From IMG/VR virus record IMGVR_UViG_2636415906_000004: DNA of 14,821 bases; one strand, written 5' to 3'. The translations under genes and the position numbers were made by a program. This stretch comes from a virus (lineage: Duplodnaviria; Heunggongvirae; Uroviricota; Caudoviricetes). The notes under the pieces are model-generated. The model saw only the letters and a program-made list of their open reading frames with translations, was not told the origin of the DNA and searched no databases. Position 1 is the stretch's first letter; each line of letters starts with the position of its first letter. This document shows positions 11,430-13,592 of this stretch, in pieces.

Positions 11430-11478
11430 GGCTGACACTGCTGTTCTTGATGCAAATTAAAGGATTTAATAGTGAGTA

Positions 11479-11502
11479 GCGGCCTTACTAATGTAAGGCC
11501 GC
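11479..11502. terminator. hairpin gcggccttac-taat-gtaaggccgc between pin remnant and the restriction gene (possible bidirectional terminator)
   Basis: 10-bp perfect stem with A/T-rich flanks on both sides. Sits 23 nt beyond the stop of the minus-strand gene. Confidence 0.45.
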
Positions 11503-11524
11503 TATAATCATTTTATTAATTGCA

Positions 11525-13474
11525 TTAATCGTGTTTTGGCCATACTTTCAATGCAATTTCCCCCAACTTTTTACCCCGCTCCAGGATTTCATCCTCATCC
11601 CATTTATCCTTAACTATAAGTGGAATGTTCAGTCGTAGATTGGTGTGGACGATGAGAGCATCACGTTTTTTCAGAAATACAGCATTCTGAACAGAACGGT
11701 TTACGCTAAGGTTAAGCAAAGTTAGATTTCCCAACGTAGCTATCGCTTGTTGCCGTTTCCTTACCAGTAGCTGTTCAGGGGTAAGATCGGTTCCAGACAG
11801 AACAATTTGGTTCAATACCGTAGCATCTGAATTTGTCACCATATGACCATTTTCGAGAGGCCAACAGGAAAACCAACTTTGAGGCATAAGATGATCGATA
11901 TCGAGATTGGAAAGATTTGGACCATCAGGCTTCTCTGTCTTCACTTGGCGACAAAGTTCTCTTTCAAGTTCCGTTAACATTGAGCGCATTTTCGGTGCGT
12001 CGAGCCTGCCAGGATAAAGTGGAGCATTGATGCAAGCATTGAGAAATTCTGAGTCACCAGGCCAACGTGAGGCTTCGCCATTTAAGCTATTGAGGATATT
12101 ACGTAACTCAACACTGGAAATTTCCGTTTTAGACAAGTGCCGCAATACATTCATAAATACATTGTTGTAATTCTTTGGCGTCAGGCCACATACGGCTCTT
12201 CGTACTACGTAGGAGACAAGATCATTATACATGGCTGCTTTCTCATCATCAGCGATGTTAGCTATCGAAATGAACAAAGCAAGCGGATAAAGTGTCGTCA
12301 CATCATAGTCTGCGATGCGATATCCAAAGTGTGAGATGGGGGTTGTGCCAAAACCATCAACCAATTCTTTATATTGTGATGCATATTGTTTGAGGCGCTT
12401 TACTTGCAGATCTGCTCGTTGTGAAGACAAGTCCTTACTTACATAATCACGATACTCATTGTAAAGGCGAGACAGATCAATTTCACGCTGCCTTTCTGAT
12501 TGCAATGTCGCATGTACTAGCCACTCCATGCGTGGTTTATTAATACGTCCACGGCGTTGCTTTTCCGACCAGTATTTATCTTCAAAGCTCTTCCACTCAT
12601 TTTCATATAATTCAATAGCATTAATATTTTCATGCTCAGCGCACATAAAGATATAGTTGCGAATAAGATCCGTGGCATGAAGTTCCGCCCCTCGCCCATT
12701 TAATGTTTCAAAAATTATTTGGGCATCATCTTCAGCTTCGAGAAATATGCTTACCAGTTTCAGATCTGTTAAGACAGCCTCAATTAGAGCTACAGCATTT
12801 TCTTGTGGTGAGTGGTTTTCTATTTTAATCCATTTTATAAAGGCTTCAGTAAAAAAACATAATGCTTCTAGTGATGGCGGGTGATTAAAATGCTTACGCA
12901 ACGTACCATGCTGCGTGAAACTATCAGAGAATACGTCCCGGAGATCGTCAATATTTTCAACATTAAAACTTTGAATAAAATGAGTTTGATCCCGAAAAGT
13001 TGGCCATAGTTTGAAGCGTTCTACTTCTTTATTTCGCATTGTGTCTTCGTTTGAGTTTTTCAGGCAAGGCGAAATGAGAGCCTCTAAGCTGAAAAGATCC
13101 GTAGCACGTAATGCTAATCGGATGGATGCCAGAACATATTGAAGAGTGGTCAATCGTTGCTGACCATCAATAATATGTATGGAATCTACACCTAATAATC
13201 CTTTTTTTGATTGAGGTTCCAGTACAACCGCACCAAGGAAATGGGGAGTTGGTTTTGTACCCGAGAGCCGGGATTGTGCTTTCTCTAGGATATCCTCCAG
13301 TAGAGCTGACCATTGGTCTTGCTGAGTCCATACATAGGCACGTTGATAGAATGGAACACAGTATTGTCGGCGGTCTTGAAAAAGTTGTTGGACAGTTAGC
13401 GTCTCGGATTTCATGGTATACCTGTAAGCGACATTGTACAAAAGTGAGGAGTTAATCTGATTTAGAACAATCAT
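11525..13474 (-). CDS. GmrSD-family type IV (modification-dependent) restriction endonuclease, DUF262 + DUF1524 fusion
   Basis: N-terminal DGQQR motif (IIDGQQRLTTL) and FYQRAYVW typical of DUF262. C-terminal DIDHLMPQSW ... GNLTLL ... N typical of the DUF1524 HNH-like domain. AT-rich. The likely true start is the ATG at 13414 (MKSETL...) with AGG upstream; the first ATG at 13474 has no SD. Confidence 0.75.
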   Translation of the reverse strand: MIVLNQINSSLLYNVAYRYTMKSETLTVQQLFQDRRQYCVPFYQRAYVWTQQDQWSALLEDILEKAQSRLSGTKPTPHFLGAVVLEPQSKKGLLGVDSIHIIDGQQRLTTLQYVLASIRLALRATDLFSLEALISPCLKNSNEDTMRNKEVERFKLWPTFRDQTHFIQSFNVENIDDLRDVFSDSFTQHGTLRKHFNHPPSLEALCFFTEAFIKWIKIENHSPQENAVALIEAVLTDLKLVSIFLEAEDDAQIIFETLNGRGAELHATDLIRNYIFMCAEHENINAIELYENEWKSFEDKYWSEKQRRGRINKPRMEWLVHATLQSERQREIDLSRLYNEYRDYVSKDLSSQRADLQVKRLKQYASQYKELVDGFGTTPISHFGYRIADYDVTTLYPLALFISIANIADDEKAAMYNDLVSYVVRRAVCGLTPKNYNNVFMNVLRHLSKTEISSVELRNILNSLNGEASRWPGDSEFLNACINAPLYPGRLDAPKMRSMLTELERELCRQVKTEKPDGPNLSNLDIDHLMPQSWFSCWPLENGHMVTNSDATVLNQIVLSGTDLTPEQLLVRKRQQAIATLGNLTLLNLSVNRSVQNAVFLKKRDALIVHTNLRLNIPLIVKDKWDEDEILERGKKLGEIALKVWPKHD

Positions 13475-13592
13475 TTTATTTTGCTATGATACAACGTATT
13501 TGTTACCGGTTAAGCAAAAAACGCGTCTGAACGCTGACGTTTTAGGGCTTTACTGGTTATTCTTTCTTATCTCTTCATCATTGGATTTGCCC

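What the first reader, a model, noticed from the sequence alone, without database searches (positions are those of the whole stretch)
11430..13581. GmrSD-like type IV restriction gene at the invertase-adjacent hotspot, replacing the 3' part of pin
The 649-aa ORF has the DUF262 DGQQR motif and a C-terminal DUF1524 DHxxP...N HNH-like module. That combination marks GmrSD/BrxU-type enzymes that cut glucosylated or hydroxymethylated phage DNA. It occupies the slot immediately beyond the tail-fibre invertase, where e14 carries the unrelated type IV enzyme McrA. The insertion coincides with truncation of pin at codon 42, and a perfect 10-bp hairpin separates the two genes.
Basis: partly seen in the sequence, partly recalled or inferred. 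Interest (0 to 1): 0.6.

Follow-up and report, generated by a model that had tools for sequence, protein, structure and literature searches.

The report
Known GmrSD restriction gene in prophage

Summary
The minus-strand ORF 11525..13474 is real. Its true start is the ATG at 13414, giving 629 aa, not 649. It has Pfam GmrSD_N (7e-34) and GmrSD_C (8e-20). It matches the 629-position PADLOC type IV model end to end (1418 bits). It is 98.7% identical (621/629) to UTI89_C2960, the "UT" GmrSD, and 93.3% identical to Eco94GmrSD and CT596 GmrSD. DGQQR, E271/E273/E278/K280 and D507/H508/N522 are all conserved.

About 305 of 5426 complete E. coli genomes carry the gene, and 302 carry the same truncated-pin/gmrSD junction. 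The junction therefore arose once and was inherited; it is not a local event. The gene occupies the slot that holds mcrA in K-12 e14. In strain 1190 a prophage at the e14 site (icd) carries gmrSD in exactly that position.

The hairpin is 12 bp perfect, not 10. An IS2 with a 5-bp target duplication lies 167 bp upstream. The literature already records that gmrSD lies next to tail-fibre and invertase genes. Novelty: already known. Interest: low.

The parts
11221..11246 (+). Pin crossover (pix) site, TTCTCCCAAACCAACGTTTATGAAAA, just upstream of pin'
   Evidence: It is identical to the site upstream of pinE in K-12 e14 and is present in all seven loci examined. Only one copy occurs in the window at up to 3 mismatches. 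The name and role of the site come from established knowledge of the Gin/Cin/Pin/Hin systems.
11301..11429 (+). pin': 5' remnant of the tail-fibre DNA invertase gene (42 codons plus TAG)
   Evidence: Pfam Resolvase N-terminal domain, 2.9e-09, residues 3-41. It is 93.6% identical to e14 pinE up to window 11422. RefSeq annotates it as an incomplete recombinase lacking its C-terminus.
11423..11452 (.). Junction zone where pin homology decays. It includes the 1-nt deletion that creates the TAG stop in this allele.
   Evidence: Alignment with four intact pin genes and the S3 and 1190 alleles shows about 19 of 31 positions shared, and nothing beyond. BLAST extends 14 nt further in S3 and 1190, which keep the extra G.
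11477..11504 (.). Perfect 12-bp inverted repeat with a 4-nt loop, between pin' and the gmrSD stop codon; a likely terminator
   Evidence: the repeat finder pair I2 is 100% complementary. It is terminator-like on the + strand. A 91-nt fold gives -28.1 kcal/mol, z = -6.1. It is retained in all five alleles, with substitutions on one side of the stem only.
11525..13414 (-). gmrSD coding sequence: 629 aa plus stop, identical to RefSeq WP_000834400.1, UT-type allele
   Evidence: Pfam GmrSD_N and GmrSD_C. PADLOC mREase_IV 1418 bits, residues 21-649 of the ORF aligned to profile positions 1-629. 621/629 identical to UTI89_C2960 and 587/629 to Eco94GmrSD. dN/dS 0.14-0.23 against four other alleles.
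13154..13168 (-). DGQQR motif (residues 83-87) of the DUF262 / ParB-like NTPase domain
   Evidence: Position. The motif's role in gamma-phosphate binding is taken from BrxU (PMC8565348) and from PMC4619093.
11849..11896 (-). D507-H508 ... N522 His-Me finger (HNH-like) nuclease motif of the DUF1524 domain
   Evidence: Residues confirmed. In Eco94GmrSD, D507, H508 and N522 are the predicted catalytic residues, and D507A, H508A and N522A variants were made and tested (PMC4437046).
13415..13474 (-). In-frame upstream extension of the ORF (20 codons); not coding
   Evidence: A stop codon lies two codons upstream of MKSETL in the S3 and 1190 alleles, and 1190 also has a 10-nt insertion here.
13415..13581 (-). 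gmrSD 5' leader and promoter region. It contains a promoter-like site: -35 TTAACC starting at 13513, -10 TATCAT ending at 13486.
   Evidence: The promoter scan scores it 9 of 12, but the number of such sites in the region is not above chance. The region travels with the gene in all loci, up to about 210-345 bp upstream of the ATG.
13582..14821 (-). IS2, cut by the window end, inserted upstream of gmrSD. It is not part of the gmrSD module.
   Evidence: NCBIfam IS2 TnpB at 727.6 bits and IS2 TnpA at 276.4 bits. Comparison with strain 3CM, which has an empty site, gives a 1331-bp insert plus a 5-bp ATCAT duplication.

Best explanation
The gene encodes a single-chain GmrSD type IV (modification-dependent) restriction endonuclease of the UT allele type. 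It is carried as cargo at the right end of a decayed e14/SfII-like prophage integrated at a tRNA-Pro gene next to yejM.

Inferred mechanism, taken from the characterised relatives:
- The N-terminal DUF262 (ParB-like, DGQQR) domain binds and hydrolyses an NTP. This drives a conformational or oligomeric cycle.
- The C-terminal DUF1524 His-Me finger (D507/H508/N522) cuts DNA that carries 5-hydroxymethylcytosine or its glycosylated forms. The cell's own unmodified DNA is spared.
- The lysogen is thereby protected from T-even-type phages.

Because the N-terminal third is UT-type, the expected phenotype is that of UTI89. That means insensitivity to the T4 inhibitor IPI*, restriction of T2, T6 and RB69-type phages, and no restriction of T4.

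The gmrSD module is about 2.2-2.3 kb: junction, hairpin, gene and about 0.2-0.35 kb of upstream DNA. It replaced everything downstream of about codon 41 of the invertase gene, once, in an ancestor. It has since moved between related prophages, leaving the tail-fibre switch without its own recombinase.

Shown here: domain architecture, identity to the characterised enzymes, conserved catalytic residues, purifying selection, the shared junction, and equivalence of the slot to e14 mcrA.

Inferred, not shown: activity, phage specificity and expression in this strain.
For: - Domains: Pfam GmrSD_N 7.4e-34 and GmrSD_C 7.9e-20. PADLOC mREase_IV 1418.5 bits over the full 629-position model.
- Identity: 98.7% to UTI89_C2960 and 93.3% to Eco94GmrSD and CT596 GmrSD, using sequences from Fig. 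S1 of PMC4437046. The MS7163 allele is identical to the published UT sequence.
- Residues: DGQQR, E271/E273/E278/K280 and D507/H508/N522 are all conserved.
- Selection: all five alleles compared are intact at 629 codons, with dN/dS 0.14-0.23.
- Frequency: the gene is in 305 of 5426 complete E. coli genomes. The exact protein was seen on at least 1000 contigs.
- Junction: the same junction is in 302 genomes. It occurs in at least four chromosomal contexts.
- Slot: K-12 e14 has pinE-mcrA-attR. Strain 1190 has pin'-gmrSD followed by the icd fragment at the same site.
- Published function: Eco94GmrSD shows ATP-stimulated, modification-dependent cleavage and restricts T4 delta-ip1 more than 10^6-fold. 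The UT enzyme is IPI*-insensitive and restricts T2 and T6 but not T4 (PMC4437046). The UT enzyme restricts RB69 (PMC6024577).
- Mechanism: BrxU structure and its NTP-driven dimer-monomer cycle (PMC8565348).
Against: - Nothing here shows expression or activity in this strain.
- Purified UT enzyme was inactive in vitro under all conditions tried (supplement of PMC4437046). The biochemical mechanism therefore rests on the 93%-identical Eco94 enzyme and on the distant relative BrxU.
- This allele has three private substitutions: S108F, V498G and Y515F. Two of them lie within 10 residues of D507/H508.
- An IS2 lies 167 bp upstream of the start codon and could change expression.
- The predicted promoter is no better than chance.
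- The surrounding prophage is heavily degraded.
Confidence: 0.9

Rival explanations
1. The gene is an intact-looking but silent or inactive passenger in a decaying prophage. It would be on its way to becoming a pseudogene, or switched off by the IS2 insertion, and would give no phage defence in this strain.
For: - The prophage has lost its morphogenesis genes and is full of fragments.
- An IS2 sits 167 bp upstream.
- The allele has private substitutions near the catalytic dyad.
- Purified UT enzyme was inactive in vitro.
- One genome has an IS3-family element inside the gene (H26) and another holds a 5'-truncated copy (H64).
Against: - All five alleles compared keep the 629-codon frame, with dN/dS 0.14-0.23.
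- The identical protein is found on at least 1000 contigs.
- Strain 3CM carries the identical allele without IS2.
- The IS2 lies upstream of the candidate promoter and the conserved leader.
- Strain UTI89, which carries the UT allele, restricts T-even phages in vivo (PMC4437046).
Confidence: 0.06
2. The protein acts mainly as a toxic, addiction-like or abortive-infection module that stabilises the prophage remnant, or kills cells that acquire hmC-producing DNA. Classical restriction of incoming DNA would then be secondary.
For: CT596 GmrSD is toxic even at low-level expression in RecA-deficient E. coli, with fewer than about 10^-6 survivors. Co-expressing IPI* relieves the toxicity. The authors raise the possibility of an unknown detoxifying factor in the prophage (PMC4437046). 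The gene also outlives the rest of the prophage.
Against: - No conserved small partner ORF accompanies the module. Its shared upstream DNA is only about 210-345 bp and differs by indels between allele types.
- Published in vivo data show strong, specific restriction of modified phages and none of lambda.
Confidence: 0.03
3. It is a different DUF262-DUF1524 enzyme, such as a BREX-associated BrxU or a phosphorothioate-sensing SspE or Dnd-type nuclease, with a different target.
For: The PADLOC scan also returns weaker hits to SspE (E about 1e-16 to 1e-9, N-terminal region only), HEC-06 and 'Orf5' models.
Against: - These hits score 35-262 bits against 1418 bits for the type IV model.
- No BREX, ssp or dnd genes are annotated in the 30 kb around the gene.
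- Identity to the prototype GmrSD enzymes is 93-99%.
Confidence: 0.01

Closest known systems
EcoUTI89GmrSD (UTI89_C2960, the 'UT enzyme'; WP_000834402.1)
   Same: Both are 629 aa and 621/629 residues are identical. The UT-type N-terminal third and all motif and catalytic residues are the same. Both follow a truncated pin and tail-fibre genes in an SfII/e14-like prophage, with the same junction, hairpin and DinI-like pseudogene beyond.
   Different: There are eight substitutions. At five of them (46, 428, 443, 524, 559) the window allele has the Eco94/CT residue and UT is the exception. Three are private to the window allele: S108F, V498G and Y515F. The chromosomal site differs, the prophage here is a remnant, and an IS2 lies upstream.
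Eco94GmrSD (WP_000834395) and EcoCT596 GmrSD, the biochemically and genetically characterised prototypes
   Same: Same length and architecture, 93.3% identity, and identical D507/H508/N522 and E271/E273/E278/K280. They share the same pin' junction and prophage slot. The strain 1190 allele is 1 aa from Eco94 and has the same junction.
   Different: There are 42 substitutions, 29 of them in the first 190 residues. Synonymous divergence there is 0.67-0.73, against 0.05-0.06 in the rest of the gene, so the N-terminal third is a mosaic piece from a more distant lineage. Published phenotypes differ: the CT and Eco94 enzymes are blocked by T4 IPI* and hit T4 delta-ip1, while the UT type is IPI*-insensitive and does not restrict T4 (PMC4437046, PMC6024577).
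BrxU (GmrSD-family enzyme of the Escherichia fergusonii pEFER BREX island; first structure of the family)
   Same: Both have DUF262 (DGQQR) plus DUF1524 (DHxxP HNH-like) architecture. BrxU shows NTP-dependent cleavage of modified cytosine DNA and is the source of the mechanistic model (PMC8565348).
   Different: The relationship is distant. BrxU did not appear in a sequence search of the PDB at E <= 0.01. BrxU is plasmid-borne within a BREX island and also cuts 5mC DNA. No BREX genes are present here.
EcoKMcrA of cryptic prophage e14 (positional analogue only)
   Same: Both are type IV restriction genes in the cargo slot between the tail-fibre invertase and the prophage right end (attR) of the same prophage lineage.
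   Different: The proteins are unrelated, and McrA targets 5mC. mcrA is on the same strand as pin, and pinE stays intact. gmrSD is on the opposite strand, and pin is cut at about codon 41.

Membership tests
GmrSD type IV restriction endonucleases (prototype clade: CT596, Eco94, UTI89) | N-terminal DUF262 / GmrSD_N domain with the DGQQR motif | tested here: met
   PF03235 at 7.4e-34, 118 bits against a cut-off of 33.2. DGQQR is at residues 83-87.
GmrSD type IV restriction endonucleases (prototype clade: CT596, Eco94, UTI89) | C-terminal DUF1524 / GmrSD_C domain with the DHxxP...N His-Me finger motif | tested here: met
   PF07510 at 7.9e-20, 71.6 bits against a cut-off of 23. D507, H508 and N522 (and N528) are present.
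GmrSD type IV restriction endonucleases (prototype clade: CT596, Eco94, UTI89) | Full-length collinear similarity to the experimentally characterised enzymes | tested here: met
   621/629 identical to UTI89_C2960 and 587/629 to Eco94GmrSD and CT596 GmrSD, with no gaps. PADLOC mREase_IV at 1418.5 bits over profile positions 1-629.
GmrSD type IV restriction endonucleases (prototype clade: CT596, Eco94, UTI89) | Residues shown by mutagenesis to matter in Eco94GmrSD (E271/E273, E278/K280, D507, H508, N522) | tested here: met
   All are conserved. Residues 271-280 read ENEWKSFEDK. The mutagenesis is described in PMC4437046.
GmrSD type IV restriction endonucleases (prototype clade: CT596, Eco94, UTI89) | NTP-stimulated cleavage of 5hmC or glc-5hmC DNA, with none on unmodified DNA | not testable with these tools
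   This has been shown for Eco94GmrSD. Purified UT enzyme was inactive in vitro (PMC4437046 and its supplement).
GmrSD type IV restriction endonucleases (prototype clade: CT596, Eco94, UTI89) | In vivo restriction of T-even phages with glycosylated hmC DNA | not testable with these tools
   Reported for strains or clones carrying the CT, Eco94 and UT alleles (PMC4437046, PMC6024577). It has not been measured for this allele.
GmrSD type IV restriction endonucleases (prototype clade: CT596, Eco94, UTI89) | Prophage-borne, next to tail-fibre, tail-fibre-assembly and invertase genes (context reported for CT596, STEC_94C and UTI89) | tested here: met
   The literature statements are in PMC4437046 and PMC4619093.
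BrxU-type, BREX-associated GmrSD homologues | Embedded in a BREX locus (brxA/B/C, pglX, pglZ, brxL neighbours) | tested here: not met
   No such genes are annotated in the 30 kb around the gene in strain NC19.
SspE / Dnd-type phosphorothioate-sensing DUF262 nucleases | Full-length match to SspE models and linkage to sspABCD or dnd genes | tested here: not met
   The SspE models match only the N-terminal ~120 residues, at E 8e-16 or weaker. No ssp or dnd genes are nearby.
Gin/Cin/Pin/Hin serine DNA invertases (applies to the pin' fragment) | Complete catalytic domain plus C-terminal helix-turn-helix (about 184 aa) | tested here: not met
   Only 42 codons remain, matching positions 2-48 of the 145-position Resolvase model. 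No 3' part of pin was found in the up-to-30-kb loci held for the six gmrSD-carrying strains examined.

The most novel reading that the evidence does not exclude
The pin'-gmrSD unit may be a discrete cassette that formed once by a deletion or illegitimate recombination inside pin. It would since have moved between e14/SfII-like prophages at four or more chromosomal sites by homologous exchange, trading the phage's tail-fibre (host-range) switch for a defence gene. Within it, the N-terminal third of the enzyme is swapped between lineages. The window allele (S108F, V498G, Y515F, and H524 instead of UT's R524) could then have a substrate or inhibitor-escape spectrum different from both the UT and CT enzymes. 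IS2 could also alter its expression.
Probability: 0.15. Interest if true: 0.3.

Novelty: already known. Interest (0 to 1): 0.12.

Why it matters
For the scan, this is a correct call on a known defence gene and not a discovery.

GmrSD is the textbook enzyme of the T4 arms race: hmC, then glucosylation, then GmrSD, then IPI*, then IPI*-insensitive GmrSD.

Three modest additions come from this work:
- The truncated-invertase junction is universal across about 300 genomes and all allele types.
- The slot after the invertase holds different nuclease genes in sister prophages: mcrA, a GIY-YIG nuclease or gmrSD.
- The N-terminal third of the gene is a recombinational mosaic.

These points could help in annotating the many "DUF262 domain-containing protein" entries in RefSeq as GmrSD, and in predicting T-even phage host range in APEC/ExPEC strains used for phage therapy work.

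Tried and rejected
- The 649-aa reading was rejected. The 20-codon extension is interrupted by a stop codon in the S3 and 1190 alleles.
- NCBIfam has no model for the protein. This explains the uninformative RefSeq name "DUF262 domain-containing protein".
- A sequence search of the PDB gave only a weak N-terminal hit to 9jfl, an unnamed DUF262 protein (E 9e-8). It did not find BrxU. I did not model the structure, because 93-99% identity to characterised enzymes already settles membership.
- I tested whether pin was truncated by an inversion rather than a deletion. I looked for the 3' part of pin in the up-to-30-kb loci held for the six gmrSD-carrying strains and found none. The LEM-3-like GIY-YIG gene is in the opposite orientation in MS7163 compared with intact-pin prophages, and is only 75% identical. 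I did not pursue this.
- I looked for a second pix site in the window at up to 3 mismatches and found none.
- The promoter scan was not above chance: 8 sites against 6.2 expected. The promoter assignment is weak.
- No deposited phage genome carries the gene, either by megablast or by tblastn above about 25% identity.
- I looked for a conserved small partner ORF (immunity or antitoxin) upstream of gmrSD and found none that is convincing.
- Hairpin substitutions in other alleles are all on one side of the stem, so there is no covariation evidence for either strand.
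Full report
**What is in the sequence**

The window is E. coli DNA. Bases 11200-13700 match 100% in many complete genomes, mostly avian-pathogenic O78 and related strains.

In strain NC19 the window lies inside a roughly 15-kb prophage remnant. The remnant is bounded by two tRNA-Pro genes next to yejM. It contains an integrase, yfdP/Q/R-type early genes, a lysis cassette, fragments of several genes, and pieces of tail-fibre and tail-fibre-assembly genes. These are followed by a partial "recombinase family protein", a "DUF262 domain-containing protein" (WP_000834400.1, 629 aa), an IS2, a DinI-like pseudogene and the second tRNA-Pro.

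**The protein is 629 aa, not 649**

- The 629-position PADLOC model aligns to ORF residues 21-649.
- RefSeq and the published enzymes start at MKSETL.
- In the S3 and 1190 alleles a stop codon lies two codons upstream of that methionine. Allele 1190 also has a 10-nt insertion there.
- The start codon is therefore the ATG at 13414.

**Family and identity**

Pfam gives GmrSD_N (PF03235, 7.4e-34) over residues 28-276 of the ORF. It gives GmrSD_C (PF07510, 7.9e-20) over residues 471-639. Both are far above the curated cut-offs.

PADLOC's "Type IV methyl-directed restriction enzyme" model scores 1418.5 bits end to end. The next families (Orf5, HEC-06, SspE) score 35-262 bits.

I took the sequences printed in Supplementary Fig. 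S1 of He et al. 2015 (PMC4437046). The window protein is 621/629 identical to UTI89_C2960 (the "UT enzyme"). It is 587/629 identical to both Eco94GmrSD and single-chain CT596 GmrSD, with no gaps.

DGQQR is at residues 83-87. E271, E273, E278, K280, D507, H508, N522 and N528 are all present. The allele in strain MS7163 is identical to the published UT sequence.

So this is not a GmrSD-like gene. It is a natural allele of GmrSD itself.

**How it most likely works**

The published evidence is as follows.

- Eco94GmrSD (93% identical) cuts T4 glc-5hmC and T4gt 5hmC DNA. ATP stimulates cleavage, and unmodified DNA is not cut.
- D507, H508 and N522 are the predicted catalytic residues. D507A, H508A and N522A variants were made and assayed for cleavage and DNA binding.
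- The E271A/E273A double mutant shows no detectable cleavage.
- In vivo, Eco94GmrSD restricts T4 delta-ip1 more than 10^6-fold, T4 about 15-fold, and lambda not at all (PMC4437046).
- The UT enzyme is insensitive to the T4 inhibitor IPI*. It does not restrict T4 with or without IPI, but it restricts T2, T6 and RB69 (PMC4437046; PMC6024577).
- The BrxU structure shows that DUF262 is the nucleotide-binding domain and that DGQQR sits at the gamma-phosphate. DUF1524 is the HNH-type nuclease. Nucleotide binding drives a dimer-to-monomer cycle that defence requires (PMC8565348).

By inference, the window enzyme uses the same NTP-gated, modification-dependent cleavage, with the UT-type phage spectrum. 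This step is inferred, not shown.

Caveats:
- Purified UT enzyme was inactive in vitro.
- The window allele has three private changes: S108F, V498G and Y515F.
- At five other positions, including H524, the window allele carries the Eco94/CT residue where UT differs.

**Evidence the gene is maintained**

The gene is present in 305 of 5426 complete E. coli genomes. It is always chromosomal. The alleles fall into three identity bands. The exact protein occurs on at least 1000 contigs.

Five alleles compared all keep 629 codons, with dN/dS 0.14-0.23.

Between UT-type and CT/Eco94-type alleles, the first 190 codons have dS 0.67-0.73. The rest of the gene has dS 0.05-0.06. Of the 42 amino-acid differences, 29 fall in that N-terminal third. 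The N-terminal third and the upstream leader are therefore a mosaic piece from a more divergent lineage. This fits the known difference in IPI* sensitivity and specificity, but on its own it shows recombination, not positive selection.

**The pin truncation**

The pin frame starts at 11301 and ends at the TAG at 11427-11429 after 42 codons. It matches only the first third of the Resolvase catalytic domain.

The crossover site upstream (11221-11246) is identical to the one in e14.

Homology to intact pin genes is solid to 11422. It is followed by a 30-nt zone with about 19 of 31 shared positions, and then nothing.

The window, MS7163 and YF-1 alleles lack one G that the S3 and 1190 alleles have. 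That deletion produces the TAG. In S3 and 1190 the frame runs on into unrelated sequence.

The same junction, intergenic sequence and hairpin occur in every allele type examined. A 166-nt probe across the junction is found at 80% coverage or better in 302 genomes, essentially all carriers.

The carriers sit in at least four contexts:
- tRNA-Pro/yejM;
- the UTI89-type site;
- next to paoD;
- icd.

The truncation is therefore one old event inherited with the module, not something that happened at this locus. No 3' pin fragment was found in the up-to-30-kb loci held for six gmrSD-carrying strains, which points to deletion rather than inversion.

The right edge of the shared module lies 210-345 bp upstream of the gmrSD ATG.

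**The slot**

K-12 e14 reads ymfQ-stfP-tfaP-tfaE-stfE'-pinE-mcrA-attR(icdC)-iraM.

Strain 1190 has, at the same icd site, ymfQ, tail fibre, tfa, pin', gmrSD, an icd fragment and iraM. Its gmrSD allele is one residue from Eco94GmrSD.

Five sampled prophages with an intact pin carry the following downstream of it:
- mcrA (an internal-stop pseudogene in ECONIH5);
- three hypothetical genes;
- a LEM-3-like GIY-YIG nuclease gene.

In strain S3 a type ISP restriction-modification gene lies just beyond gmrSD.

**Hairpin, promoter and IS2**

The inverted repeat is 12 bp perfect (11477-11488 / 11493-11504, 4-nt loop). It folds far better than shuffled sequence (z = -6.1). It looks like an intrinsic terminator on the plus strand, that is, for transcripts coming from pin'. 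On the gmrSD strand it lacks a clear U-tract. Variants in other alleles are on one side of the stem only.

A promoter-like site (13513-13486, minus strand) precedes the gene, but such sites are not enriched over chance.

IS2 (1331 bp, 5-bp ATCAT duplication) is inserted at 13582. It is transcribed towards gmrSD. It is absent from strain 3CM, which has the identical gene.

**Comparison with the literature, and novelty**

He et al. [quoted passage not shown] They say the same of the UTI89 and APEC O1 homologues. Machnicka et al. [quoted passage not shown]

No paper I found draws the explicit parallel with the e14 mcrA slot. None describes the universal pin' junction or the N-terminal mosaic. These are incremental observations.

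No deposited phage genome carries the gene. This is consistent with the reported failure to induce the UTI89 prophage.

**Verdict**

The feature is an already known enzyme in its already known context. Interest is low.

Noticed in passing
window 13582-14821 (L001 16383-17718): An IS2 (1331 bp) with a 5-bp target duplication ATCAT is inserted 167 bp upstream of the gmrSD start. It is transcribed towards gmrSD. Strain 3CM has the identical gene with an empty site. The effect on gmrSD expression is unknown.
   Followed up: partly
window 11525-13414, codons 1-190 versus 191-629: Between UT-type and CT/Eco94-type alleles, synonymous divergence is 0.67-0.73 in the first 190 codons but 0.05-0.06 in the rest. 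The upstream leader also differs by indels. This indicates a recombinational mosaic of the N-terminal (DUF262) third.
   Followed up: partly
window 11221-11246 and 10014-11274: The pix crossover site next to pin' is identical to the one in e14, but it is the only copy in the window. The alternative tail-fibre tip and tail-fibre-assembly genes are present, but the constant part of the tail-fibre gene is missing. The invertible segment is therefore frozen and orphaned in this remnant.
   Followed up: partly
L010 4113-4886, L011 4116-4889, L012 4116-4889, L003 7942-8715: A LEM-3-like GIY-YIG domain gene sits directly after intact pinE in three sampled prophages. It is also present beyond gmrSD and the DinI-like pseudogene in the UTI89-type locus, where it is in the opposite orientation and only about 75% identical. 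It may be another nuclease cargo of the same slot.
   Followed up: no
L005 7610-10786 (strain S3): A type ISP restriction-modification enzyme gene lies immediately beyond gmrSD. Two defence genes are therefore stacked at this prophage end.
   Followed up: no
window 1-852 (+) and 6653-7459 (+): These are two sizeable prophage ORFs of 283 and 268 aa. Neither has a Pfam or PADLOC match. They match only PHROGs of unknown function (phrog_3630 and phrog_30208). The first lies between the tRNA-Pro copy at the left end of the remnant and the integrase gene, a typical cargo position.
   Followed up: partly
window about 9780-10450 (L001 12584-13249): RefSeq annotates a run of gene fragments here: a partial HNH endonuclease, a partial carbohydrate kinase and a partial tail-fibre assembly gene. 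They mark the deletion that removed the whole morphogenesis region of the prophage and joined the lysis cassette to the tail-fibre end.
   Followed up: no
NZ_CP138412.1 (H26) and NZ_CP045206.1 (H64): In strain 50EVA gmrSD is split by an IS3-family element. Strain DE17 holds a copy that lacks the first 189 bases. These are occasional inactivated copies among roughly 300 intact ones.
   Followed up: no
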